Assembly (NCBI GenBank): GCA_946534895.1 | Contig: CAMNDE010000006.1 | Coordinates: 13,504-77,503 of the forward strand | Origin: an uncultured Clostridia bacterium | Lineage (GTDB): Bacteria > Bacillota > Clostridia > Christensenellales > Aristaeellaceae | Direction of reading: 5' to 3' | DNA: 64,000 nucleotides | In this document: one piece after another, positions 13,527-24,077 of the stretch | Position numbering within the stretch: the first letter of the stretch is position 1 | How the letters are laid out: the number at the start of each line of letters is the position of its first letter | Made by a program: the position numbers and the translations under genes | Notes under the pieces: generated by a model | Seen by the model: only the letters and a program-made list of their open reading frames with translations | Database searches by the model: none | What the model was told of the DNA's origin: nothing

Positions 13527-13880
13527 TCATGCCATCAGGTTCCGGAAGGCCTCAAAGGAATCATCACTCATTTCCCAGCTGAAGGAAATGGCATCGCGCA
13601 TGGCCAGGGACGGTTCCACACCGGCTCTTGTGAGCAACTGCTGGAAAAAAAGGACGCGTGTCCGGAGCCGTTCGGAATGTGTTTTCCCTTTGGCGGTAAA
13701 GACCAGATTTCCATCGGGTTCCACTTCCATCAGTTCCTGCTCCCGCAGCTGCCGGAGTGCAGTACTGACGGCGGCTTTGGATACACCCAGATAATGTGCC
13801 ACATCGACAGATCTCACGCACGGATATGTTTCCTTGAGCATCTGCACGGCAAACAGATATCGGTCGTGTGTGCTGTTCAT
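13527..13880 (-). CDS. short DtxR/MntR-family transcriptional regulator (117 aa)
   Basis: N-terminal wHTH YLFAVQMLKETYPCVRSVDVAHYLGVSKAAVSTALRQLREQELM plus a helical segment as in the iron-dependent-repressor fold. ATGA overlap with the upstream AraC-HTH gene. Confidence 0.8.
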   Translation of the reverse strand: MNSTHDRYLFAVQMLKETYPCVRSVDVAHYLGVSKAAVSTALRQLREQELMEVEPDGNLVFTAKGKTHSERLRTRVLFFQQLLTRAGVEPSLAMRDAISFSWEMSDDSFEAFRNLMA

Positions 13881-14245
13881 GGCTCGGTTTCCTCCTGGCC
13901 GGCGGAAGCATGGCGCTTCCGGTATTCACTGGGCGTACAGCCTTCGATTTTTCGGAAAACATGCGTGAAATGGGAGGAGGACACAAATCCTACGGTCTCT
14001 CCGACCTTTGAGATGCTCAGATCCGTGGCTGTCAGAAGTTCCCTGGCATTTTTGCAGCGTACGGCCTGGTGATAGGCGAGCGGGGTTATGCCCGTCTGAC
14101 GCTTGAAGGTACGCATCAGATAGCTTCCGTTCACAAACAGTGCGCCTGCAAGCTTTTCCAGGGAGAATTTTTCAGTGCTGTGTGTATTCAGATAATCCAG
14201 AGCTGCCTCCGTGAGAGCCTTGCCGCCGGTCTGCCTGGTATTCAA
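13877..14245 (-). CDS. AraC-type HTH-only transcriptional regulator (122 aa)
   Basis: Two HTH_18-like helices (FSLEKLAGALFVNGSYLMRTFKRQTG...SISKVGETVGFVSSSHFTHVFRKIEGCTPSEYR) and no sensor domain. TTG start with RBS AGGAAGGTGA. Confidence 0.8.
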   Translation of the reverse strand: MNTRQTGGKALTEAALDYLNTHSTEKFSLEKLAGALFVNGSYLMRTFKRQTGITPLAYHQAVRCKNARELLTATDLSISKVGETVGFVSSSHFTHVFRKIEGCTPSEYRKRHASAGQEETEP

Positions 14246-14495: not shown

Positions 14496-16244
14496 ATGAG
14501 AAAGTCAAGGCTCGCCGCGAGTCTGCTGTGCGGCCTGATGGTAATGATGCTGGTGCTGCCCATGGGGGCTTTTGCCGAAGAAGCGTCCACCCGCTGGGCG
14601 GATGCCTCGGATGAAATAGACAAGTACCTGGACGCCGCTTTTGAGAGCTATCTGGATGGCGATGCGAAAACGGCCTATGACAATGTGAGCAACGCCTATT
14701 TCCGGGTATATGAAACCACCGGTTTTGAGCGGCAGACCATGAGCTATGTTTCCGGCAACCGGAAAAATGCGGTGGAAATGCAGTTTTCCGCCTGCAAGGC
14801 CGCGGTGAAGAAGGAAAACACGGACCAGGAGACCATCGTCTCTGTCCGAAGCGCGCTGAAAAAGCTGAAGACCATGATCCGCGAGGACGGGAACAAGCTT
14901 GCGGCGATACAGGGCGGTGTGCAGAGCGAAACCAAGTATTACAAGCGCGGTGAGCTGGTGTCCACTGATCCCTATCCGGAATACTCGGCTGACCCCGGTG
15001 CCGCACAGAAGTATGCCAACTGGTATGAGGCGGCAACCCTGGTAAAGGAACTTCTGGATACCGCCTACATGGGATATCTGGACAAGGATTTTGAGGCGGC
15101 TCAGGACAACCTGAACACCGCCTACTACTCCGTGTATGAAGAGTCCGGGCTGAATCACAGGATCTATACGGACCTGACATTGAAAGACCGGCAGAAAATG
15201 GATGGCTACTTTTCCAACCTGCAGGGCCTGCTCGATAACGCGCAGGTCAAGTATCAGAAAAACAAGTACCGTACCACCACCGATGGCGCCAAGAACACGG
15301 TGCTGAAGCTGGCCAAGGCGCTGGACACGAAGGAAGAGGAAGCCAGGGCAGCGCTTGCTGCGGAATCAGGCGAAGCGGCCGGTGAAACCCAGGAGGAAGC
15401 CGCGCAGCAGACCGATCCCCGGCTGCTGACGTTCCTGGGTGCCTTCGGCATCATTGTCCGTGAGGGCCTGGAAGCCATTCTGGTCATCGCTGCCATCATC
15501 GCGTACCTGACCAAGAGCGGGAACAGCAGGAACCTCAAGAATGTGTATATCGGCGCGGCTGCCGGTGTGGCGGCCAGCTTCATCGCCGCCGGCATTCTGG
15601 CCTGGGAAAAGCAGGCGTTTGTAGGCGCGGGTCTTGCACAGGAAGTGATCGAGGGCATTACCGCACTGATTGCTGTGTGTGTGCTGTTCTATGTGAGCAA
15701 CTGGATGATCTCCAAGGCGGAAGCCGCTTCCTGGAGCCGGTATATCGACGGCAAGGTGCAGTCCTCCGTGGAACAGGGCAGTGCCTTCGCTCTGGCATTC
15801 ACTGCCTTCCTCTCCGTGTTCCGTGAAGGCGCGGAAGTGGTGCTGTTCTACCAGCCGATGCTTTCGGAAGGCAATCCCGGAATGGTGTGGGCCGGCTTCG
15901 GCGCAGGCTGCGTGCTTCTGGTGTTCGTGTATCTGGCGATCACCAAGCTGTCCATCAAGCTGCCGATCAAGCTGTTCTTCACCGCGACATCCATTCTGAT
16001 GGCGATCATGTGCGTTTCCTTCCTGGGCAGCGGCATCAAGGAGCTGGCGGAAGGCAACGTGTTTGACCTGACACTGCGTGTGCCCGGTGTACCGGAGAAC
16101 GACGTGATTCAGATCTTCGGCATTTATCCCTGGATGGAAACTCTGCTGCCTCAGCTGATCCTTTCGATCATCCTGCTGGTCACGTTCCTGATGGCCCATT
16201 ACCGCGGCCGGATCGATGCGCTGAAAGCACAGTATTCCAAGTAA
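14496..16244 (+). CDS. FTR1-family high-affinity iron permease with a long N-terminal extracytoplasmic domain
   Basis: 582 aa. Signal/TM segment, then two REXXE motifs (VREGLEAIL, FREGAEVVL) in a 7-TM C-half. RBS GGAGGA. Confidence 0.9.
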   Translation: MRKSRLAASLLCGLMVMMLVLPMGAFAEEASTRWADASDEIDKYLDAAFESYLDGDAKTAYDNVSNAYFRVYETTGFERQTMSYVSGNRKNAVEMQFSACKAAVKKENTDQETIVSVRSALKKLKTMIREDGNKLAAIQGGVQSETKYYKRGELVSTDPYPEYSADPGAAQKYANWYEAATLVKELLDTAYMGYLDKDFEAAQDNLNTAYYSVYEESGLNHRIYTDLTLKDRQKMDGYFSNLQGLLDNAQVKYQKNKYRTTTDGAKNTVLKLAKALDTKEEEARAALAAESGEAAGETQEEAAQQTDPRLLTFLGAFGIIVREGLEAILVIAAIIAYLTKSGNSRNLKNVYIGAAAGVAASFIAAGILAWEKQAFVGAGLAQEVIEGITALIAVCVLFYVSNWMISKAEAASWSRYIDGKVQSSVEQGSAFALAFTAFLSVFREGAEVVLFYQPMLSEGNPGMVWAGFGAGCVLLVFVYLAITKLSIKLPIKLFFTATSILMAIMCVSFLGSGIKELAEGNVFDLTLRVPGVPENDVIQIFGIYPWMETLLPQLILSIILLVTFLMAHYRGRIDALKAQYSK

Positions 16245-16320
16245 CACAGATACCCCCGCGGACAGCCCCGCGCAGTCCGCGCAGGATATACAATTGACAA
16301 TGATGTAGGAGGATTTCACG

Positions 16321-16869
16321 ATGAAAAAGTTTTTTGCCCTGCTGCTGACTGCTATGCTGCTGATGAGCATGACCGCCGTTGGTCTCGCTGAAGAAGCGGG
16401 TTTCGATGAATATGAACTGGGTGTGGAAGGCGAGCAGACCGTCGACTTCATGACCCTGTCAATGGTGTATTTCCAGCCCGTGGACATGGCTCCCGCCGAG
16501 AATGCCACCCCCAAGGAAGGCTCTGACCTGCACATCGAAGTGGACCTGACCGCCAATGAGAACCCCTATGGCTTCCCGGTGGACGGCTGGGTGCCCTATC
16601 TGAGCATTGACTTCGTGATCAAGGATCTGGAAGGCAAGGAAGTGTATTCCGGTTCCATGATGCCCATGGCCGCCAGCGATGGCCCCCACTATGGCAACAA
16701 CATCCCTCTGGCAGAAGGCGAGTACACCGTGACCCTGTACATCAAGAGCCCTGCTGAGAACGGCTACCTGCTGCATGTGGATGCGGAAACCGGCGTTGAG
16801 GCGGATTCCTTCTGGACCGAGCCTCTGGAAGTCACCTGGACCGGCTGGAAGTTCGTCAAGGAATGGTAA
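16321..16869 (+). CDS. P19/Tp34-type periplasmic iron-transport protein
   Basis: 182 aa, signal peptide. Blocks VYFQPVDM, NENPYGFPVDGWVPYL and PMAASDGPHYGNN are typical of the P19 (FtrA-like) family that partners with FTR1. Confidence 0.85.
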   Translation: MKKFFALLLTAMLLMSMTAVGLAEEAGFDEYELGVEGEQTVDFMTLSMVYFQPVDMAPAENATPKEGSDLHIEVDLTANENPYGFPVDGWVPYLSIDFVIKDLEGKEVYSGSMMPMAASDGPHYGNNIPLAEGEYTVTLYIKSPAENGYLLHVDAETGVEADSFWTEPLEVTWTGWKFVKEW

Positions 16870-16895
16870 GCTGATTCCCGGATAATACTGTCAGT

Positions 16896-16934
16896 ATGCT
16901 GGCGCGTCCCCCGCGGGGGAGGACGCGCCAGCAT
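16896..16934 (+). promoter_or_regulatory. very stable intercistronic stem-loop (processing/stabiliser or partial terminator)
   Basis: 14-bp perfect stem ATGCTGGCGCGTCC(16896-16909)/GGACGCGCCAGCAT(16921-16934). No adjacent U-tract. 27 nt after the P19 stop. Confidence 0.5.
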
Positions 16935-16973
16935 TGTGTGCGTTTACAGATAATTATTTTTGGGGGTTCTGAC

Positions 16974-18269
16974 GTGTTCAAGTATATCTGGATGGTGACG
17001 CAGGATCTGTTTCTTGCCGTCACACTGACCACCCTCATGCATGTGATGCTGTCACGGCTGCTTGGCAGAAAGGGACAGATGGTCCATGGAATCGCCCTGA
17101 TCGCGGGCGTTCTCGCTTCTGTCACGCTGGCTGCCGTGAAATTCAATACGAGACTCATTATATCCAGCCATTGGAATCATTACATTTACGCGGTTATTCT
17201 GGTGCTGACACTGCTGGTTCTGATCCTGACGGCCCTGTTCGGCCGGAAGGAAAACGGGAAAATGCATGCGGGGAGCATGATTCTCTGCGCTGCGGGTTCC
17301 CTTCTGTCAGCCACGCTGATCTTCTATGCCCTGCCCGGCGTACTGCTGTATCCGTTCAGCTTCAATACCATGGGCCAGGGCTATCTGTCCTCATATTACA
17401 TGGTGCGTATGGCCGGATGGCTTGGCGCACTGGTACTCCTGTTCGTATATTCGCGCCTGCTTTCACGCTGTGCGCTGTACATAAAGCCCTACGGCCTGGT
17501 TCCCTTTGCGATGAACGCAGGCCTGCTTTCCTTTGCTGCATACTGTTTCGGCCGCTACTTTGTTCCCTGGGTCAACCGGGCCAAGTGGCTCAAGTGGCCT
17601 GTGAAATACACGGGTGACGCCTACGGGTGGATCGGCGACTGGATGATGTTTACCGCCAATCATTCCATGCTGTTCATCTGGATCACGGTAGTGATCGCCG
17701 CGGTGATGGCAGTCCTGCTCTTCCGGCAGGGCACAGTCATCCGGGAACCCTATGACAACCCCGCCCAGCTACGCAAGCTGAAAGCCCGGAACCGGCACTG
17801 GCGGCGTGTGGCCGCAGGCATTCTGGTGTGCATCTGCCTGTGCACGGTGATCATGACAGTGGTAAAGACCAACGACACCAAGCAGGTGGAGCTTTCCGCG
17901 CCGGAAGCGTATACCGTGGACGAGGCAGCCGGTGTCATTCTGGTACCGATGGAGGCTGTCAGCGACGGACATCTGCACCGGTTTGAGTACAAGACGGAAA
18001 AGAACATCAATGTCCGCTGGATCGCGGTGAAGAAACCGGGTTCCGCATCCTACGGCGTGGGTCTGGATGCCTGCGAGGTGTGCGGCAATGCGGGATACTT
18101 TGAGCGCAGCGGCCAGGTCATCTGCAAGCGCTGCGACGTGGTGATGAACATCAACACCATTGGCTTCAAGGGCGGCTGCAACCCGATTCCCTTGCCTTAC
18201 GAGGTGAAGGACGGCAGCCTGGTCTTCAAGCTGAGCGATATTATTGCGGGTGAAAAAGAATTCAGATAA
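16974..18269 (+). CDS. DUF2318-family membrane protein with C-terminal Cys-rich domain
   Basis: Multi-TM N-half, then CEVCGNAGYFERSGQVICKRCDVVMN...GGCNPIPL. The GTG at 16974 follows GGGGG. The track start at 16896 lies inside the hairpin and was rejected. Same gene order as Campylobacter cj1658-1663, as I recall it. Confidence 0.8.
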   Translation: MFKYIWMVTQDLFLAVTLTTLMHVMLSRLLGRKGQMVHGIALIAGVLASVTLAAVKFNTRLIISSHWNHYIYAVILVLTLLVLILTALFGRKENGKMHAGSMILCAAGSLLSATLIFYALPGVLLYPFSFNTMGQGYLSSYYMVRMAGWLGALVLLFVYSRLLSRCALYIKPYGLVPFAMNAGLLSFAAYCFGRYFVPWVNRAKWLKWPVKYTGDAYGWIGDWMMFTANHSMLFIWITVVIAAVMAVLLFRQGTVIREPYDNPAQLRKLKARNRHWRRVAAGILVCICLCTVIMTVVKTNDTKQVELSAPEAYTVDEAAGVILVPMEAVSDGHLHRFEYKTEKNINVRWIAVKKPGSASYGVGLDACEVCGNAGYFERSGQVICKRCDVVMNINTIGFKGGCNPIPLPYEVKDGSLVFKLSDIIAGEKEFR

Positions 18270-18284
18270 GGAGGGCGCTTCGCA

Positions 18285-19580
18285 ATGCTGTTCCGTATGA
18301 TACGCGGTGTGCTCTTTCATCAGAAGGGCAAAATGCTGCTGATCGCTCTGACCATTGTGCTCGGTGCATCGCTGGCAACAGGGATGCTGAACGTGGTCAT
18401 GGGCGTGGAAGAAAAAGTGAACAAGGAACTGAAAAACTACGGTGCCAATATCACGGTCAAGCCCAAGGATTCCTCACTTCTCGCCGATATCTATGATGTG
18501 GGCGAAGGCGAGGAGCTGAATACGGCCTATCTGCGCGAGGATGAGCTCGGCAAGCTGAAGACCATATTCTGGGCGTTCAATATCGTGGACTTCGCCCCGT
18601 TCCTGGACACGCAGGTGGCCCTGCCGGACGGCAGCACGGCCCGGATGACGGGCACCTGGTTCAATCATCATCTGGACCTTCCCACCGGTGAGAGCCTGGA
18701 CGCGGGCGTGGTGGGCATGCGGTCCTGGTGGGATGTGACAGAAGGACGCTGGCTGGACGAAAAGGATGAAAATGCCGCGTCCGAGGTCATGGCGGGCACG
18801 CTGCTGGCCCAGAGAATGGGCTGGCACGCGGGCGATACCGTGCATATTGCCACCGTTCAGGGGGAAAAGGATGTGACCATTGCCGGCGTGTATGATGCGG
18901 GCGGCGATGAGGACGAGCAGATGTTCGGCATCCTTGACCTGGTGCAGGAAATGACCGACCGGGAAAACAAGGTGGCCTCCATTGAAGTGTCTGCCCTGAC
19001 GACCCCGGACAATGAACTGGCCCGCCGCGCGGCACGCAATCCGGCCGCCCTGTCCTCCCGGGACTACGAGACCTGGTACTGCACGGCCTATGTCAGTGCC
19101 ATCTGCTATCAGATCCAGGAAGTGATCACGGGCTCGGTGGCCAGCGCAGTGCGCAAGGTGGCGGAAAGCGAAGGCACCATCCTGGACAAGACCAAGCTGC
19201 TGATGATCCTGATCACGGCGCTGAGCCTTATCGGTTCGGCACTGGGCATCTCGAACCTGGTGACCGCCTCCGTCATGGAGCGGAGCCAGGAAATCGGCCT
19301 GTTCAAGGCCATCGGCGCCCGGGATCATTCGATCACCGGCGTTGTCATGACCGAGATTCTGATCACCGCGCTGGTGGGATTTGGCGTCGGATATTTCCTG
19401 GGACTGGGTTTTGCGCAGCTCATCGGACAGAGCGTGTTCGGCTCGGCCATTGACCCGAATCCCAAGGTCGCGCCGATCGTAGCCGGTCTGATCGCCCTGG
19501 TCACCATCGCCGGCAGCCTTCCTGCCATCCGCCAGGTGCTGCGCCTGCGGCCTGCAGAAGTGCTGCACGGTGGACATTGA
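18285..19580 (+). CDS. ABC transporter permease, FtsX/MacB-like
   Basis: 431 aa. TM1, a large extracytoplasmic domain, then a C-terminal FtsX 3-TM bundle (ERSQEIGLFKAIGA). RBS AAGGAGGG. Confidence 0.85.
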   Translation: MLFRMIRGVLFHQKGKMLLIALTIVLGASLATGMLNVVMGVEEKVNKELKNYGANITVKPKDSSLLADIYDVGEGEELNTAYLREDELGKLKTIFWAFNIVDFAPFLDTQVALPDGSTARMTGTWFNHHLDLPTGESLDAGVVGMRSWWDVTEGRWLDEKDENAASEVMAGTLLAQRMGWHAGDTVHIATVQGEKDVTIAGVYDAGGDEDEQMFGILDLVQEMTDRENKVASIEVSALTTPDNELARRAARNPAALSSRDYETWYCTAYVSAICYQIQEVITGSVASAVRKVAESEGTILDKTKLLMILITALSLIGSALGISNLVTASVMERSQEIGLFKAIGARDHSITGVVMTEILITALVGFGVGYFLGLGFAQLIGQSVFGSAIDPNPKVAPIVAGLIALVTIAGSLPAIRQVLRLRPAEVLHGGH

Positions 19581-19596
19581 GAAGGTGAAGAGAACG

Positions 19597-21057
19597 ATGA
19601 CAAAACGAAGAATGTTTCTGCGCATGATCACCGCGTCGCTGCTGCGCCGGCGCTCCCGCATGATCATCGCACTGCTGTCCATTGGCATTGGAGCCACGAT
19701 TCTGGCCGGTCTTGTAACCATTTATGTGGACGTGCCCCGGCAGATGGGTGCCCAGTTCCGTTCCTACGGCGCGAACATGCTCCTGCTGCCCAAAAACAAT
19801 GAGATCCTGAACAGCGAAAATCTTGCGGAAGCCCTGAAACAGATCCCGGAATCCGAGCTGGTGGGTGCCGCGCCTTACCGCTATGTACGGCTGGATATGA
19901 CCACGCGTCAGCAGTCCTTCACTGCGGCGGGCACGGACTTTACGCAGATTACGAAAACAAGCCCGTATTTCAGCATTGAAGGCGAGTATCCTTCGGCGAC
20001 CCGTCAGGTGCTGGTGGGAAAGGAAATCGCGGAGAATATCGGCGTCAGGATCGGTTCCACCATGGAACTGACCTATCAGCCGACAAGCGCTTCCGGCACC
20101 AGGACCCCGGAAGAGAGCCGGGTGCCGGGAGCATCGCTGTCCGGCCAGGCGGAAGGCTTTGGCGGCGGCATGATCTATGTGACGGCAGAGCTTGATGACC
20201 AGGCGAGGATTGCATCGGTTTCCGTGGACGTATCCACCCAGACGCCGGAATACGGCGGACGCATTTCCGAGGATGAAGCGTTCCTGAATCAGTTTGCGGG
20301 AAAAACCCTGCCGCTTGCGCTGGGCGACGGTGTGGATGCCCTGAGCGGCGCCACTGTGACGTCCGCCGCGGTTGTGGATGCCCTGAACAGGGCAACGGAA
20401 ACCACCGCGGCCGCACAGCCGAAAACCCTGAACTTTACCGTTACCGGGATTCTGACCACCGGCGGTGAGGAAGAAGGGTACGTGTTCCTTTCCATTCAGG
20501 ACATGGAAAACATGACCGGAGCGGACCGCCTGGACGTGGCGGAGCTTTCGGTGTCCGCATCTGTGGAACAGCTGGAAGCCTACACGGAGGCGATCACGGC
20601 AGGAAGCGACAGCGTTCAGGCCAGACTGGTCAAGCGCGTGGCACGCTCCGAGGCTTCGGTACTGGAAAAACTGACAGCACTGGTGTTCCTGGTCACGCTG
20701 GTTGTGCTGCTTCTGACCATGATCTGTGTCAGCACCACGATGATGGCTGTCGTTTCCGAACGCCGCAGGGAAATCGGCCTGCGCAAGGCGCTGGGCGCGT
20801 CTGACGGCTCCATCCGTGCGGAATTCCTGGGCGAAGGCCTGTTCCTGGGACTGCTGGGCGGCGTGATGGGCGCGCTCCTGGGCTTTGTGTTCGCCCAGGT
20901 GGTCAGCGTCAATGTGTTTGGCTCTTCCATCACTTTCCAGCCGCTGCTGCTGCCTGCCGCCATCATCGTTTCCATGGCGATTGCCGCGGCGTCCTGCCTG
21001 CTGCCGATCAAGCGCGCAGTGGCCATTGATCCGGCTATCGTCCTGAAAGGAGAATGA
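19597..21057 (+). CDS. FtsX/MacB-like permease carrying an inserted FMN_bind domain
   Basis: FtsX C-terminus (ERRREIGLRKALGA). The extracytoplasmic loop contains IYVTAELDD..ISEDEAFLNQFAGK...DALSGATVTSAAVVDAL. Start at 19597 (RBS GAAGGTGAAGAG) or at 19570. Confidence 0.8.
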   Translation: MTKRRMFLRMITASLLRRRSRMIIALLSIGIGATILAGLVTIYVDVPRQMGAQFRSYGANMLLLPKNNEILNSENLAEALKQIPESELVGAAPYRYVRLDMTTRQQSFTAAGTDFTQITKTSPYFSIEGEYPSATRQVLVGKEIAENIGVRIGSTMELTYQPTSASGTRTPEESRVPGASLSGQAEGFGGGMIYVTAELDDQARIASVSVDVSTQTPEYGGRISEDEAFLNQFAGKTLPLALGDGVDALSGATVTSAAVVDALNRATETTAAAQPKTLNFTVTGILTTGGEEEGYVFLSIQDMENMTGADRLDVAELSVSASVEQLEAYTEAITAGSDSVQARLVKRVARSEASVLEKLTALVFLVTLVVLLLTMICVSTTMMAVVSERRREIGLRKALGASDGSIRAEFLGEGLFLGLLGGVMGALLGFVFAQVVSVNVFGSSITFQPLLLPAAIIVSMAIAAASCLLPIKRAVAIDPAIVLKGE

Positions 21058-21061
21058 CATC

Positions 21062-21736
21062 ATGAGCTTGCTTGAACTGAGAAATATATCGAAGATTTAC
21101 GGGGAATTAAAGGCACTGGATAATGTGAGCATCCATGTGGACCAGGGGGAATGGGTGGCGATCATGGGACCTTCCGGCAGCGGAAAGAGCACCATGATGA
21201 ACATTATCGGGTGCATGGACAAGCCCACCAAGGGCGAGGTTCTGCTGGACGGCGTGGACATTGCCAAGGAGAGCAGCAAAAAGCTGACGGACATCCGCAG
21301 GGACAAGATCGGCCTGATCTTCCAGCAGTTCCACATGGTCAATTACCTGACCGCCGTGGAAAACGTGATGGTGTCCCAGTACTATCACTCTATGCCCGAT
21401 GAAAAGGAAGCCCTGGAGGCTCTGGAGCGTGTGGGCCTCAGGGAGCGTGCACGGCATCTGCCCAGCCAGCTGTCCGGCGGCGAGCAGCAGCGTGTGTGCG
21501 TGGCGCGGGCGCTGATCAATCATCCCGAGCTGGTCCTGGCCGACGAACCCACCGGCAACCTGGACGAAGCCAATGAAAACATTGTGCTGGGTCTGTTTGC
21601 CCAGCTCCACAGGGAGGGCACCACCCTGATCGTGGTTACCCATGACCCGGAGGTGGCGGAAGCCGCCCAGCGCACCATTGTGCTGGAGCACGGCAAGGTC
21701 GCCCGTGAAATCATCAACGAAAACTTCGGAAAATAA
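21062..21736 (+). CDS. ABC transporter ATP-binding protein (MacB/LolD type)
   Basis: Walker A GPSGSGKST, signature LSGGEQQR, Walker B LVLADEPT. Confidence 0.9.
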   Translation: MSLLELRNISKIYGELKALDNVSIHVDQGEWVAIMGPSGSGKSTMMNIIGCMDKPTKGEVLLDGVDIAKESSKKLTDIRRDKIGLIFQQFHMVNYLTAVENVMVSQYYHSMPDEKEALEALERVGLRERARHLPSQLSGGEQQRVCVARALINHPELVLADEPTGNLDEANENIVLGLFAQLHREGTTLIVVTHDPEVAEAAQRTIVLEHGKVAREIINENFGK

Positions 21737-21762: not shown

Positions 21763-22149
21763 ATGAAAAAGCAGACAATACCCGCCGTCATTCTTCTGGC
21801 TGCAGCGCTGGTGACTGCGATCGGCAGCCAGACCTTCCTTTCCCCCTGCGTCCATGAAGACGGTTCCTTTGGTCCGTGTCACTGGGCAGGACAGACGCTT
21901 CTGGGACTGGGCTGTGTGCTTGGCGTTATGGCAGTGCTCTGCCTGTGCGTGAAACGTGCGCGGCAGGGTGCGTATCTCAGCGCCCTGCCCGTGTGCCTTA
22001 TGGGCATTGCGACGCCGGGCACGCTGATTGACATCTGCCATATGAGCACCATGCAGTGCCGGATGGTGATGCAGCCCGCCATGATCATCCTGTTTTCGCT
22101 TGCGCTGATCACTGCCCTGACCGGCGCGATCCTGACCGGGAGAGAGTAA
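21763..22149 (+). CDS. DUF4418-like small Cys/His-rich membrane protein
   Basis: 128 aa, 4 predicted TM segments. SPCVHEDGSFGPCHW and CHMSTMQC motifs. RBS GGGGA. Confidence 0.65.
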   Translation: MKKQTIPAVILLAAALVTAIGSQTFLSPCVHEDGSFGPCHWAGQTLLGLGCVLGVMAVLCLCVKRARQGAYLSALPVCLMGIATPGTLIDICHMSTMQCRMVMQPAMIILFSLALITALTGAILTGRE

Positions 22150-22156
22150 CGAGCCG

Positions 22157-23356
22157 ATGAAAAACTTTTCCTTATCTGTCAAAAACCTGACCCGCAGGCC
22201 GGGACGTACGCTGGCGCTGACCCTTCTGACCGCCTTCCTTGCGCTGGCGGTCTTTGGCGGATCGGTGGTGGTGCTCTCGCTGCGCAGCGGACTGAACAGT
22301 CTGGAGGCCCGGCTTGGCGCGGATATCATTCTGGTGCCCTCCGAGGCCCAGAGCAAGGTGAGCTTCCAGAACATGTTCCTGCAGGGAACCACAGGCGCGT
22401 TTTACATGGATGCTTCCGCCCTGGACCAGGCACTGGAAGTGGAAGGCGTGGAAAAGGCCGCGCCGCAGACTTTCCTGGCCTCCCTGAAAGCGGACTGCTG
22501 TTCCATCAAGATCCAGGTGATCGGCATTGACCCGCAGCGGGATTTCACGGTGCAGCCCTGGATTTCCCGGAGTCTTACGCGGGAACTGGGAGACATGGAC
22601 GTGGCTGTGGGCTGCAAGGTGGAAGCGGAAGTGGGAGAAATCATCCGTATCTATGATCAGCGCTGCAAGGTGGTTGCGCGGCTCGAAGCCACCGGTACCG
22701 GGCTGGATACGGCTGTGTACTGCAATATGGACACCATGAACACGCTGCTTCAGGCGGCGGAGGCCATGGGCGTAAGCCACCGGATTGAAAGCGGGGACCA
22801 GGTGATCTCCGCTGTGTATGTAAAGGTAAAGGATGGCTGCGATATCGGCACGGTCAACAGTCAGCTGAACGGACATATCCGCAAGGTGACCGCTGTGCGC
22901 ACGCGCAGCATGATCACCGGCGTATCGGACAGTCTGGCGGGCATCAGCCGCACAGTCACAATACTGATTGTGGCGGTATGGGTTCTGGCGTTCATGATTC
23001 TGCTGCTGGCTTTTGCACTGATCATCCGGGAAAGGTCCAGAGAGTTTGCCGTACTCCGGCTAGTGGGTGCATCCCGCGGCATGCTCTCGCGCCTGGTGCT
23101 GCAGGAGTCTTCCGTGTGCGGGCTGCTGGGCGGACTGACCGGCATTCTGGTGGCGGCGCTGTTTCTGTTTCCCTTCGCCCAGCTCATTGAAAGCGCACTG
23201 AAGCTTCCGTATCTGATGCCGGATACGGGGAAGGTGCTGCTGCTGGCAGGAGGAACCATGCTTCTTTCCGTGCTTGTGGCGGCGCTGGCCAGCATTGCCG
23301 CCGCGTACCGCCTGAGCCGGGTGGATCCCGGCATCGCCCTGCGGGAGGGAAACTGA
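22157..23356 (+). CDS. ABC transporter permease, FtsX-like
   Basis: 399 aa. TM1, an extracytoplasmic domain, then an FtsX bundle (ERSREFAVLRLVGAS). Confidence 0.85.
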   Translation: MKNFSLSVKNLTRRPGRTLALTLLTAFLALAVFGGSVVVLSLRSGLNSLEARLGADIILVPSEAQSKVSFQNMFLQGTTGAFYMDASALDQALEVEGVEKAAPQTFLASLKADCCSIKIQVIGIDPQRDFTVQPWISRSLTRELGDMDVAVGCKVEAEVGEIIRIYDQRCKVVARLEATGTGLDTAVYCNMDTMNTLLQAAEAMGVSHRIESGDQVISAVYVKVKDGCDIGTVNSQLNGHIRKVTAVRTRSMITGVSDSLAGISRTVTILIVAVWVLAFMILLLAFALIIRERSREFAVLRLVGASRGMLSRLVLQESSVCGLLGGLTGILVAALFLFPFAQLIESALKLPYLMPDTGKVLLLAGGTMLLSVLVAALASIAAAYRLSRVDPGIALREGN

Positions 23357-23357
23357 T

Positions 23358-24077
23358 ATGCGCATGAAAGCTGAAAACATTTCCAAACGCTATTTCCGCA
23401 AAACCGGCGATGCCAATCACTTTTTTGCCGTAAAGCCGCTGAGCCTGGAGCTCCGGAGCGGTGAGGTCATCGTGCTGATGGGCCGGAGCGGTTCAGGCAA
23501 GACGACACTGCTGAACATGCTCTGCGGTCTTCTAGTGCCCACGGAGGGCAGCATCTATCTGGACGATACCGACCTGTACAGTCTGGATGACCGGAAACTT
23601 TCCCGGCTGCGCAGCGAAAGAATCGGCGTCGTTCCCCAGGGCAGGAGCGCCATTGATACCCTGAGTGTGCTGGAAAACATTCTGCTCCCGGCAAAACTCT
23701 ACGGCAGGGCACTTCCGCTGGACGGTGCGGAGAAGTGGATGGAGCGCCTGGGCATTGCCCACCTCAGGGATGCCAGGCCTGCTGAACTGTCAGGCGGAGA
23801 ACTCCGCCGCATGGCCATCGTCCGCGCCTTGGCCGGGGAGCCAGATCTGCTCTTTGCCGATGAGCCCACCGGGGACCTGGACGACGAAAACACAGCTCTG
23901 GTCCTGTCTGCGTTTAGTGACTATGCGCACGAAGAGAATAAGGGCGTATTCATTGTTACCCATGAGAATGACGCCCTGAAGTATGCCGACAGAAGCTTCA
24001 GAATGGATGGCGGCCTGATGTTTTCCGCTCAGGAAAAGTGCGCTCCGGCAGACATGTGCTCACCGGAGGCACCATGA
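23358..24077 (+). CDS. ABC transporter ATP-binding protein
   Basis: Walker A GRSGSGKTT, signature LSGGELRR, Walker B LLFADEPT. Starts 1 nt after the permease stop. Confidence 0.9.
   Translation: MRMKAENISKRYFRKTGDANHFFAVKPLSLELRSGEVIVLMGRSGSGKTTLLNMLCGLLVPTEGSIYLDDTDLYSLDDRKLSRLRSERIGVVPQGRSAIDTLSVLENILLPAKLYGRALPLDGAEKWMERLGIAHLRDARPAELSGGELRRMAIVRALAGEPDLLFADEPTGDLDDENTALVLSAFSDYAHEENKGVFIVTHENDALKYADRSFRMDGGLMFSAQEKCAPADMCSPEAP

What the first reader, a model, noticed from the sequence alone, without database searches (positions are those of the whole stretch)
20137..20397. FMN_bind domain with an SGATVTS flavinylation motif inserted in the extracytoplasmic loop of an FtsX permease
Within the large loop between TM1 and the C-terminal FtsX bundle of the gene at 19597..21057, the translation reads GGGMIYVTAELDDQARIASVSVDVSTQTPEYGGRISEDEAFLNQFAGKTLPLALGDGVDALSGATVTSAAVVDALNRA. 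The SGAT-x-S sequence (nt 20344-20364) matches the ApbE flavin-transferase target motif of FMN_bind domains. The paralogous permease at 18285..19580 has no such insert.

Established knowledge: covalently flavinylated FMN_bind domains act in extracytosolic electron transfer, and I recall bioinformatic surveys linking some of them to iron assimilation.

Inference: this domain could act as an extracellular ferric reductase or electron relay, physically mounted on an ATP-driven MacB-like machine that feeds Fe(II) to P19/FTR1. No ApbE gene and no obvious membrane electron donor are present in this window.
Basis: partly seen in the sequence, partly recalled or inferred. Interest (0 to 1): 0.62.

Follow-up and report, generated by a model that had tools for sequence, protein, structure and literature searches.

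The report
Flavin domain grafted into iron-uptake permease
A rumen Clostridia bacterium carries the known P19/FTR1 iron-uptake gene cluster, but the flavin-carrying redox protein that is normally a separate seventh gene is built into the outer loop of one of the cluster's ABC-transporter permeases, which suggests where the redox partner works in a system whose mechanism is still unknown.

Summary
Gene 19597..21057 (486 aa) is a MacB/FtsX-type permease. Its outer domain carries a complete FMN_bind domain (Pfam 3.4e-10, residues 190-267) with the ApbE motif D247-A-L-S-G-A-T253. The motif's D, G, A and T are invariant in 22 homologues. The genome encodes one ApbE with a signal peptide.

The cluster has the gene order of the C. 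jejuni cj1658-1663 iron-uptake system: FTR1, P19, DUF2318, FtsX, FtsX, ATPase. The literature already records that Gram-positive versions carry a separate FMN-binding seventh gene where Proteobacteria have thioredoxins. Here that gene is absent and the domain sits at a beta-hairpin tip of permease 2.

Other lineages carry a two-CxxCH (dihaem c-type) insert at the same site and also lack a seventh gene. Their unfused relatives have a separate small cytochrome or FMN_bind gene.

The fusion therefore indicates that the redox module works on permease 2. Ferric reduction is inferred, not shown. A candidate electron source exists elsewhere in the genome: the rnf operon lacks rnfG, and the only RnfG is a multi-FMN protein next to apbE.

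Verdict: a new variant of a known kind, of moderate interest.

The parts
14496..16244 (+). FTR1-family iron permease, 582 aa. It has a roughly 300-aa N-terminal extracytoplasmic extension and two RExxE motifs (REGLE, REGAE).
   Evidence: Pfam FTR1 1.9e-25 at residues 314-518. NCBIfam EfeU/Ftr1 5e-36. Motifs read in the translation.
16321..16869 (+). P19 (Iron_transport family) secreted iron-binding protein with a signal peptide. It is the only P19 in the genome.
   Evidence: Pfam PF10634 1.9e-46. Single genome hit.
16896..18269 (+). DUF2318/FtrD-like polytopic membrane protein, the counterpart of cj1660. Its C-terminal domain carries CxxC-x13-CxxC. The true start is probably near 16992.
   Evidence: Pfam PF10080 3.4e-28 at residues 355-456. 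Hydropathy and Cys positions.
18285..19580 (+). Permease 1 (FtsX plus MacB periplasmic core domain), without an insert.
   Evidence: Pfam FtsX 2.6e-19 and MacB_PCD 1.4e-12; no FMN_bind.
19597..21057 (+). Permease 2 (486 aa). It is a type VII ABC (MacB/LolCE-fold) permease that carries the FMN_bind insert.
   Evidence: Pfam. AlphaFold model, mean pLDDT 75.8. Foldseek top hits are LolE, LolC and MacB, 4.7e-17 and weaker.
20077..20421 (+). Inserted segment, residues 161-275, lying between two strands of the periplasmic domain (E155-160 and E276-287). The Pfam FMN_bind core is at nt 20164-20397.
   Evidence: In 92 representatives of 50%-identity clusters the median length between these two strands is 14 aa. 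DSSP of the model. The LolE alignment places the gap between LolE residues 169 and 175.
20335..20364 (+). ApbE recognition motif D247-A-L-S-G-A-T253-V-T-S256. T253 (nt 20353-20355) is the predicted FMN attachment site.
   Evidence: The motif D-x-x-[S/T]-G-A-[S/T] is given in PMC12052999. Invariance in 22 homologues.
21062..21736 (+). ABC ATPase of the permease pair, the counterpart of cj1663.
   Evidence: Pfam ABC_tran 1.5e-35. It is 88-96% identical across related loci.
21763..24077 (+). Appended module: a DUF4418 Cys/His-rich four-TM protein, a third FtsX permease and a second ATPase. It travels with the fused cluster. Its role is unknown.
   Evidence: Pfam. DUF4418, FtsX3 and ABC2 were all found in 32 of 37 long related loci.
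13527..14245 (-). Two small divergent regulator genes upstream, taken from an earlier first-reader note. I did not characterise them.
Evidence: tblastn finds one or both at the same upstream position in most Christensenellales-type loci.

Best explanation
Permease 2 of an extended cFtr1-P19 iron-uptake system (FTR1, P19, DUF2318, FtsX, FtsX, ATPase) has captured an RnfG-type FMN_bind domain at the tip of a beta-hairpin in its extracytoplasmic (MacB/LolCE-like) domain.

Shown:
- The domain, its ApbE motif with an invariant threonine, and its position outside the membrane.
- An ApbE with a signal peptide in the genome.
- The absence of the separate FMN-binding seventh gene that unfused relatives carry.
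- An independent parallel: a dihaem c-type insert at the same site, in clusters that likewise lack a separate cytochrome gene.

Inferred:
- After export, ApbE attaches FMN to T253.
- The flavin is the system's extracytoplasmic one-electron relay. It does the job that thioredoxins, a free FMN protein or a small cytochrome do in other versions. That job is most likely reduction of chelated Fe(III) so that P19 and FTR1 can take up the iron.
- The fusion implies that this redox step happens on permease 2. The ATPase-driven movements typical of type VII ABC machines may position or gate it.
- Electrons most plausibly come from the membrane through the Rnf complex, whose only RnfG is a multi-flavin protein encoded beside apbE. 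The DUF2318 protein or a NapH-like polyferredoxin are alternatives.
For: Domain and motif.

Topology: residues 1-21 are Arg/Lys-rich, TM1 is at about 22-40, and the fold matches MacB, LolC and LolE.

ApbE: there is one copy, and its product has an N-terminal signal sequence. It is present in 28 of 30 other genomes with the fused permease.

Synteny with cj1658-1663, and the known swap of thioredoxin for an FMN protein: PMC6083913, PMC8238504, and B. breve SifE in PMC5449479.

Complementary pattern:
- Unfused permease 2 with a seventh-gene FMN_bind: L090, L091, L099.
- Unfused permease 2 with a seventh-gene cytochrome c7-like protein: L092.
- Dihaem insert with no seventh gene: L087-L089. The two CxxCH motifs keep a fixed spacing in 9 proteins.
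- FMN insert with no separate FMN_bind gene: 35 of 38 loci hold exactly one FMN_bind-like hit, inside permease 2. Two more hold split hits within that gene. Only L047 has a second FMN_bind ORF, about 9 kb away.

Quick tree with the insert removed: the two FMN-fused rows scored (the window and P0122) pair at 100 SH-aLRT. They sit among unfused forms that have a separate FMN gene (P0336, P0358). The haem-fused forms sit in the other half of the tree, at two or more places.

Electron source: the rnf operon reads C-D-E-A-B with no room for rnfG. The multi-FMN RnfG lies beside apbE. The permease insert is 47% identical (2e-18) to the extra RnfG repeats.

Functional precedent: deletion of cj1660-1665 homologues impairs growth under iron limitation (PMC6083913).
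Against: There is no biochemical evidence that T253 is flavinylated or that the domain reduces iron.

The direction of electron flow is not determinable from sequence. FTR1-type systems such as Fet3/Ftr1, EfeUOB and FtrABCD couple uptake to Fe(II) oxidation, and rumen iron is largely Fe(II).

The hairpin tip is a permissive, hypervariable site. Many homologues carry only Ala/Gly/Ser/Gln or acidic low-complexity inserts there. Position alone therefore does not prove a working site.

The insert resembles multi-flavin RnfG repeats, not the seventh-gene FMN proteins, which match it only at the motif. 'Replacement of the seventh gene' is therefore a functional inference, not a demonstrated gene fusion.

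The link to Rnf rests on gene content only. The RnfG gene is cut by a contig end.

Evidence of transcription is weak. It consists of contigs in one run labelled metatranscriptomic.
Confidence: 0.62

Rival explanations
1. The flavin accepts electrons rather than donating them. As in Fet3/Ftr1, EfeUOB and FtrABCD, Fe(II), which is abundant in the rumen, would be oxidised at P19/FTR1 during transport. The permease-borne FMN would carry the electron away to the membrane, for example towards DUF2318, Rnf or a polyferredoxin.
For: FTR1 has both RExxE motifs. Pfam names the in-cluster membrane protein 'FtrD-like iron-sulfur containing'. The habitat is anoxic rumen or gut. In other lineages the same slot is filled by c-type haems, which can work in either direction.
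Against: This part rests on my own knowledge. Covalent FMN domains and thioredoxins have low midpoint potentials, which suits them to donating electrons to Fe(III) chelates better than to oxidising Fe(II). The authors who described these systems favour reduction (PMC6083913, PMC8238504). No cupredoxin or ferroxidase partner is in the cluster.
Confidence: 0.15
2. The redox module serves something other than iron valence. Examples would be keeping the copper site of P19 or the Cys cluster of DUF2318 reduced, or releasing iron from a specific organic chelate by reducing the ligand. In that case the ABC machine, not the flavin, would do the iron hand-over.
For: In Proteobacteria the equivalent slot holds thioredoxins, which are thiol-disulfide reductants. 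DUF2318 has a conserved CxxC...CxxC domain and DUF4418 is Cys-rich. The substrate of the ABC part is unknown (PMC6083913).
Against: Thioredoxin, FMN and c-type haem are interchangeable in this slot. That argues for a generic electron-transfer role rather than thiol chemistry, because haem c and FMN domains are not disulfide reductases.
Confidence: 0.13
3. The domain is a passenger. It would be a structurally tolerated insertion in a hypervariable loop, with no essential role in iron uptake, and possibly not flavinylated.
For: The same loop carries functionless-looking low-complexity inserts of 20-180 aa in many homologues.
Against: The ApbE motif residues are invariant and the whole domain is conserved across Christensenellales, Lachnospiraceae and Oscillospiraceae at 61-87% identity. 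A separate FMN gene is absent exactly where the insert is present. ApbE co-occurs with it. There is a parallel haem case.
Confidence: 0.05

Closest known systems
Extended cFtr1-P19 iron-uptake system of Campylobacter jejuni (cj1658-cj1665, which is CJJ81176_1649-1656; Liu et al. 2018, PMC6083913). Yersinia pestis FetMP plus y2367-y2362 is a related example.
   Same: The first six genes have the same families in the same order: FTR1, P19, DUF2318, FtsX, FtsX, ATPase. The genes downstream of p19 are required for iron-limited growth in that system.
   Different: C. jejuni has two separate periplasmic thioredoxins as genes 7 and 8. Here there is no separate redox gene and an FMN_bind domain sits inside permease 2. 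This cluster also has a DUF4418-FtsX-ATPase module appended. The host is a Gram-positive-type anaerobe with no outer membrane.
Gram-positive P19 clusters with a separate FMN-binding protein. Examples are Bifidobacterium breve bfeUO/sifABCDE, where SifE is the FMN protein (PMC5449479), and the 260 P19 clusters with an FMN-binding gene in Meheust et al. 2021 (PMC8238504).
   Same: The same system and the same cofactor class. ApbE-type flavinylation is expected. In the quick tree the window's permease (insert removed) falls in the same starred 42-row group as unfused forms that have a separate FMN gene.
   Different: In those clusters the FMN domain is a small membrane-anchored protein encoded after the ATPase (L090, L091, L099). 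Here it is an internal insertion in the permease. By sequence the insert is closer to multi-flavin RnfG repeats (47%) than to those seventh-gene proteins. I found no mention of FtsX or of a permease fusion in the main text of PMC8238504, PMC11334425 or PMC12052999.
Type VII ABC transporters (MacB, LolCDE, FtsEX), which act by mechanotransmission.
   Same: Four-TM FtsX fold with a large periplasmic Porter/Sabre-type domain between TM1 and TM2. The permease pair is heterodimeric with a single ATPase gene, as in LolCDE. The insertion maps between LolE residues 169 and 175. From memory, this is the region of the LolC 'Hook' hairpin that recruits LolA.
   Different: No known member carries a redox cofactor domain in its periplasmic domain. 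The substrate, or the mechanical work done, in P19 systems is unknown.
RnfG/NqrC FMN_bind domains and multi-flavinylated proteins (PMC10339131; PDB 8p2b, 7zc6_G, 9eri_G).
   Same: The same domain family and the same flavinylation motif. The insert is 44-47% identical to the extra repeats of this genome's multi-FMN RnfG.
   Different: It is not part of an Rnf or Nqr complex. It is a single domain embedded in an ABC permease.

Membership tests
FMN_bind (PF04205) ApbE substrate | HMM match above the curated threshold | tested here: met
   40.9 bits against a cut-off of 22, E 3.4e-10, covering profile positions 3-76 of 77. RnfG models TIGR01947 and NF045876 also match residues 172-275.
FMN_bind (PF04205) ApbE substrate | Flavinylation motif D-x-x-[S/T]-G-A-[S/T] with a conserved acceptor Thr or Ser | tested here: met
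   The motif is D247-A-L-S-G-A-T253. D, G, A and T are invariant in 22 homologues. Motif definition from PMC12052999.
FMN_bind (PF04205) ApbE substrate | Extracytosolic location of the domain | tested here: met
   The domain lies between TM1 (about 22-40, after a positively charged N-terminus) and TM2 (about 360-378) of a MacB-fold permease. This is a prediction, not an experiment.
FMN_bind (PF04205) ApbE substrate | ApbE flavin transferase encoded in the genome | tested here: met
   One ApbE (2e-80) with a signal sequence, on contig C152. ApbE is present in 28 of 30 other genomes with the fused permease.
FMN_bind (PF04205) ApbE substrate | Covalently bound FMN on the threonine | not testable with these tools
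   Needs in-gel fluorescence or mass spectrometry of the expressed protein.
Type VII ABC (MacB/FtsX) permease | FtsX C-terminal TM bundle, plus a periplasmic core domain between TM1 and TM2 | tested here: met
   Pfam FtsX 5.5e-22. Precomputed PF12704 hit. Foldseek hits to LolE, LolC and MacB down to 4.7e-17.
Type VII ABC (MacB/FtsX) permease | Cognate ABC ATPase | tested here: met
   The adjacent gene 21062..21736 matches ABC_tran at 1.5e-35.
Extended cFtr1-P19 iron-uptake system (cj1658-1665 type) | Gene order FTR1, P19, DUF2318, FtsX, FtsX, ATPase | tested here: met
   The same order is found in 37 related loci and in L087-L092, L098 and L099.
Extended cFtr1-P19 iron-uptake system (cj1658-1665 type) | Separate extracytoplasmic redox protein (thioredoxin, FMN protein or cytochrome) as gene 7 | tested here: not met
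   There is no such gene; DUF4418 follows the ATPase. The only FMN_bind in the region is inside permease 2. This is the feature in which the locus departs from the described system.
Extended cFtr1-P19 iron-uptake system (cj1658-1665 type) | Iron-responsive expression and a role in iron acquisition | not tested
There are no expression or growth data for this organism.

The most novel reading that the evidence does not exclude
The P19-system ABC machine may be an ATP-driven redox gate. ATP hydrolysis would swing the hairpin of permease 2, and with it the covalently bound flavin (or dihaem, or a docked seventh-gene protein), between two positions. One is an extracytoplasmic electron donor, here a multi-flavin RnfG 'wire' emanating from the Rnf complex. 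The other is iron held by P19, DUF2318 or FTR1. Cytoplasmic ATP would thereby be coupled to extracytoplasmic electron delivery. This would give type VII ABC transporters a new kind of mechanical work, and it would explain why cj1661-1663 homologues are needed for iron uptake.
Probability: 0.15. Interest if true: 0.8.

Novelty: new variant of a known kind. Interest (0 to 1): 0.5.

Why it matters
The role of the FtsX-FtsX-ATPase part of P19/FTR1 iron-uptake systems is an acknowledged unknown. These systems occur in Campylobacter, Yersinia, Bifidobacterium, Treponema and many gut anaerobes.

Two independent natural fusions place the system's redox cofactor on the same hairpin of permease 2. One is an FMN domain in rumen Clostridia. 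The other is a dihaem insert in other lineages. Together they are a Rosetta-stone argument that the redox step takes place on the ABC machine. This turns a vague model into testable predictions about docking site, T253 flavinylation and ATP dependence.

The fused protein is also a convenient single-polypeptide handle for structural work.

In addition, the detached multi-flavin RnfG beside apbE suggests a route by which Rnf could feed extracytoplasmic redox reactions in Gram-positive anaerobes.

Tried and rejected
1. Literature. I searched for a described FtsX-FMN_bind fusion. I also searched the text of PMC8238504, PMC11334425 and PMC12052999 for FtsX, permease and P19 and found no mention. 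The P19 sheet of the eLife supplement is not held because the file was cut. The authors' table may therefore list these proteins without comment.

2. Origin of the insert. I tested whether it is simply the seventh-gene FMN protein fused in, and rejected that. BLASTP against the seventh-gene proteins of L090 and L091 matches only around the motif (E 1e-4 to 5e-3). The genome's multi-FMN RnfG repeats match at 47% identity (2e-18).

3. 'Metal-binding hot spot'. His- or Met-rich inserts occur at the site in P0145, P0248, P0230, P0228 and P0372. However, only one of 119 Actinomycetaceae-type hits is His-rich; most inserts are low complexity. I downgraded the idea to 'permissive loop'.

4. Known flavinylation-associated membrane donors. 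PepSY_TM, DUF4405, MsrQ-like Ferric_reduct and DsbD are all absent from this 95%-complete genome.

5. Distribution. The pattern scan of genome contigs used two narrow peptides, so it reached only relatives of 61% identity or more. It cannot give the full distribution.

6. Transcription. One run labelled metatranscriptomic holds contigs over the gene. The tool warns that DNA may be present and that contig depth is not expression, so I treat this as weak.

7. Geometry. I could not measure distances or superpose the model on LolC.

8. Tree. The careful tree search did not finish, so I used the quick IQ-TREE result. Only two FMN-fused rows passed my coverage filter.
Full report
**1. The observation**

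S-G-A-T-V-T-S is encoded at nt 20344-20364.

Pfam finds the FtsX C-terminal bundle at residues 365-479 (5.5e-22). It finds a nearly full-length FMN_bind domain at 190-267 (3.4e-10, 40.9 bits, cut-off 22). NCBIfam RnfG models match residues 172-275. A profile built from 22 homologues hits solved RnfG chains (9eri_G, 7zc6_G) over residues 171-268 at about 1e-6. In a single-sequence alignment the flavinylated 'TGATITS' segment of RnfG lines up with 'SGATVTS'.

The motif D247-x-x-S-G-A-T253 fits the ApbE recognition motif D-x-x-[S/T]-G-A-[S/T] (PMC12052999). In an alignment of 22 homologues (65-87% identity to the window protein, mean column identity 73%), D247, G251, A252, T253 and S256 are invariant.

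The neighbouring permease, 18285..19580, has MacB_PCD and FtsX only.

**2. Anatomy of the protein**

The N-terminus is Arg/Lys-rich. TM1 lies at about residues 22-40, and three further TM helices lie at about 360-470.

An AlphaFold model built on the 22-sequence alignment has mean pLDDT 75.8, with 80-88 over the insert. Its best PDB matches are LolE, LolC and MacB (E down to 4.7e-17). This is a type VII ABC permease.

In the model, strand 155-160 is followed by the insert (161-275) and then by strand 276-287. I compared 92 representatives of 50%-identity clusters that have both halves of the permease. In these the median length of this connection is 14 residues. The FMN_bind domain therefore sits at the tip of what is ordinarily a short beta-hairpin of the periplasmic domain.

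A profile alignment to E. coli LolE puts the gap between LolE residues 169 and 175. The N-terminal half of that alignment is weak. From memory, this is the region of the LolC 'Hook' hairpin that recruits LolA. That correspondence is a lead I could not verify by superposition.

**3. The cluster**

Genes 14496-21736 encode, in order:
- FTR1, with both RExxE motifs
- P19
- a DUF2318/FtrD-like membrane protein with a C-terminal CxxC...CxxC domain
- FtsX permease 1
- FtsX permease 2, with the insert
- an ABC ATPase

This is the gene order of C. jejuni cj1658-1663. Liu et al. (PMC6083913) showed that the genes downstream of p19 are needed for iron-limited growth. They also noted that where Proteobacteria have a thioredoxin as the seventh gene, Actinobacteria, Firmicutes, Spirochaetes and Synergistetes have an FMN-binding protein. 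B. breve SifE is such a protein (PMC5449479). Meheust et al. counted 260 P19 clusters with an FMN-binding gene and proposed a redox role in iron assimilation (PMC8238504).

What is not described in the papers I could search is an FMN domain inside the permease.

**4. The fusion replaces the seventh gene, and it is not unique to flavin**

In the window the ATPase is followed by DUF4418, not by a redox protein. I scanned the six-frame translations of the window region and 37 long related loci with an HMM of the insert. In 35 of the 38 there is exactly one FMN_bind-like hit, inside permease 2. Two further loci (L067, L076) have split hits within that same gene. Only L047 has a second FMN_bind ORF, about 9 kb away.

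Context look-ups of unfused homologues show a complementary picture:
- P0336 and P0358 (373-378 aa) are followed by a small FMN_bind protein (L090, L091).
- P0278 (380 aa) is followed by a 91-aa cytochrome c7-like protein (L092).
- Schaalia clusters have FMN_bind, ApbE and FeoAB after the ATPase (L099).

At the same hairpin, other homologues carry a 55-61-aa insert with two CxxCH haem-binding motifs at fixed spacing. There are nine such proteins. Their clusters read FUR, FTR1, P19, FtrD-like, FtsX, FtsX(dihaem), ATPase, with no separate redox gene (L087-L089). The dihaem insert resembles the free cytochrome of L092 (39% identity over 51 residues, 7e-7).

I built a quick maximum-likelihood tree of the permeases with the insert removed. 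The two FMN-fused rows that passed my filter (the window and P0122) pair at 100 SH-aLRT. They lie among unfused forms that have a separate FMN gene. The haem-fused forms lie in the other half of the tree, near P0278, at two or more places. The insertion of a redox module at this hairpin therefore happened independently for two cofactors. This is the main thing I add to the finding.

**5. Caveats on the site**

The same loop is hypervariable. Many homologues carry acidic, Gly-rich or Ala/Ser/Gln-rich inserts of 20-180 residues, and a few carry His- or Met-rich tracts. The loop is thus a permissive place for insertions. That weakens any argument from position alone.

The argument rests instead on two things. 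One is the mutual exclusion between insert and seventh gene. The other is the conservation of the cofactor-binding residues.

**6. Origin of the insert**

The insert matches the seventh-gene FMN proteins only around the motif. It is 44-47% identical (2e-18) to the extra FMN_bind repeats of a multi-flavin RnfG encoded in the same genome. In the representatives search its best domain-level matches were multi-FMN_bind proteins with 3-13 repeats. It therefore looks like a captured repeat of a multi-flavinylated protein, not a fused SifE.

**7. The rest of the genome**

The assembly has 188 contigs and is 95% complete.

- It has one ApbE (2e-80), whose product has a signal sequence.
- Immediately downstream of apbE is a protein whose first 174 residues match the full RnfG model (TIGR01947, 166.6 bits, cut-off 102). 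At least two more FMN_bind domains follow before the contig ends.
- The rnf operon on another contig reads rnfC-D-E-A-B. rnfD and rnfE overlap, so there is no room for rnfG.
- PepSY_TM, DUF4405, MsrQ-like and DsbD families are absent.
- Two NapH-like polyferredoxins exist. One is fused to a C-terminal thioredoxin-like domain.

At genome level, however, Rnf with an extended flavin chain is an attractive candidate. This is an inference from gene content only.

ApbE is present in 28 of 30 other genomes (MAGs) that carry the fused permease.

**8. Distribution**

The architecture PF02687 plus PF04205 characterises all 120 listed hits of more than 3,000. A pattern scan of one genome per species found 193 relatives. 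The best 80 are all rumen or gut Clostridia MAGs: Christensenellales, Lachnospiraceae, Oscillospiraceae and Blautia.

All six core genes were found in 36 of 37 long loci, and DUF4418, FtsX3 and ABC2 were all found in 32 of 37. The ATPase is 88-96% identical where permease 2 is 61-87% identical.

Near-identical sequence occurs in bovine gut metagenomes and in one run labelled metatranscriptomic. That is weak evidence of expression.

**9. Mechanism**

Shown: the architecture, the motif, the topology prediction, the presence of ApbE, and the exclusion pattern.

Inferred: ApbE flavinylates T253 outside the membrane. The flavin is the redox relay of the uptake system, most likely reducing chelated Fe(III) for P19/FTR1. 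The reaction takes place on permease 2. ATP-driven movement of the type VII machine may position it.

Rivals:
- The flavin is an electron sink for Fe(II) oxidation, as in other FTR1-type systems.
- The redox module maintains thiols or copper, or reduces a ligand.
- The domain is a passenger.

**10. Verdict**

This is a real and well-conserved feature. It is a new architectural variant of a known system, with moderate interest. It does not reveal a new kind of system. It does localise the redox step to the ABC permease and offers a tractable single-chain object for experiments.

Noticed in passing
Own genome, outside the window: G000:C29:23600-28336 (L093) and G000:C152:1-2563 (L001, L003-L005): The rnf operon reads rnfC-D-E-A-B with no rnfG; rnfD and rnfE overlap. 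The only RnfG (TIGR01947, 166.6 bits) is encoded elsewhere, directly downstream of apbE. It carries at least two extra FMN_bind repeats before the contig ends. This looks like an Rnf complex with an extracytoplasmic multi-flavin extension.
   Followed up: partly
L087:5498-6829, L088:3239-4570, L089:5195-6526: Permease 2 homologues carry a dihaem insert (two CxxCH, fixed spacing) at the same hairpin. Their clusters are FUR-FTR1-P19-FtrD-like-FtsX-FtsX-ATPase with no separate redox gene. The quick tree needs at least two origins for this insert.
   Followed up: yes
L092:9931-10206; L090:6750-7163; L091:6848-7312: Unfused clusters carry a small cytochrome c7-like protein (L092) or a small FMN_bind protein (L090, L091) as the seventh gene. 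This complements the fused forms.
   Followed up: yes
L098:8001-9428 and L099:8001-9536 (Schaalia / Actinomycetaceae): Permease 2 has a His-rich insert at the same site. L099 continues with FMN_bind, ApbE and FeoAB. L098 has an ORF with no Pfam hit in the seventh position, followed by ApbE and FeoB. Most Actinomycetaceae relatives have only Ala/Gly/Ser/Gln low-complexity inserts there.
   Followed up: partly
window 21763-24077: The DUF4418 (Cys/His-rich, four TM) - FtsX - ATPase module follows the iron cluster directly. All three genes were found in 32 of 37 long related loci. The module is absent from the unfused and haem-type clusters I looked up. Its function is unknown.
   Followed up: partly
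window 14496-15430: The FTR1 permease has a roughly 300-aa N-terminal extracytoplasmic extension after a signal or anchor sequence, with no Pfam or NCBIfam hit. An earlier first-reader note describes an internal duplication there.
   Followed up: no
Own genome: G000:C4:56971-58605 (-) (L094): A NapH-like polyferredoxin membrane protein (Fer4_5, 3.7e-11) is fused to a C-terminal thioredoxin-like domain (WATTCAPC). It is another possible route for electrons across the membrane.
   Followed up: no
Own genome: G000:C55:21282-22361 (-) (L002): A protein with a twin-arginine signal and a Cys-rich middle part ends in an FMN_bind domain. It is the best FMN_bind hit in the genome (5.9e-18). It is unrelated to Rnf or to the iron cluster.
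   Followed up: no
window 21062-21736 against loci L010-L085: The ABC ATPase is 88-96% identical across Christensenellales, Lachnospiraceae and Oscillospiraceae loci, where permease 2 is only 61-87% identical and DUF2318 is 44-87%. This suggests unusually strong constraint or recent lateral spread of the cluster.
   Followed up: no
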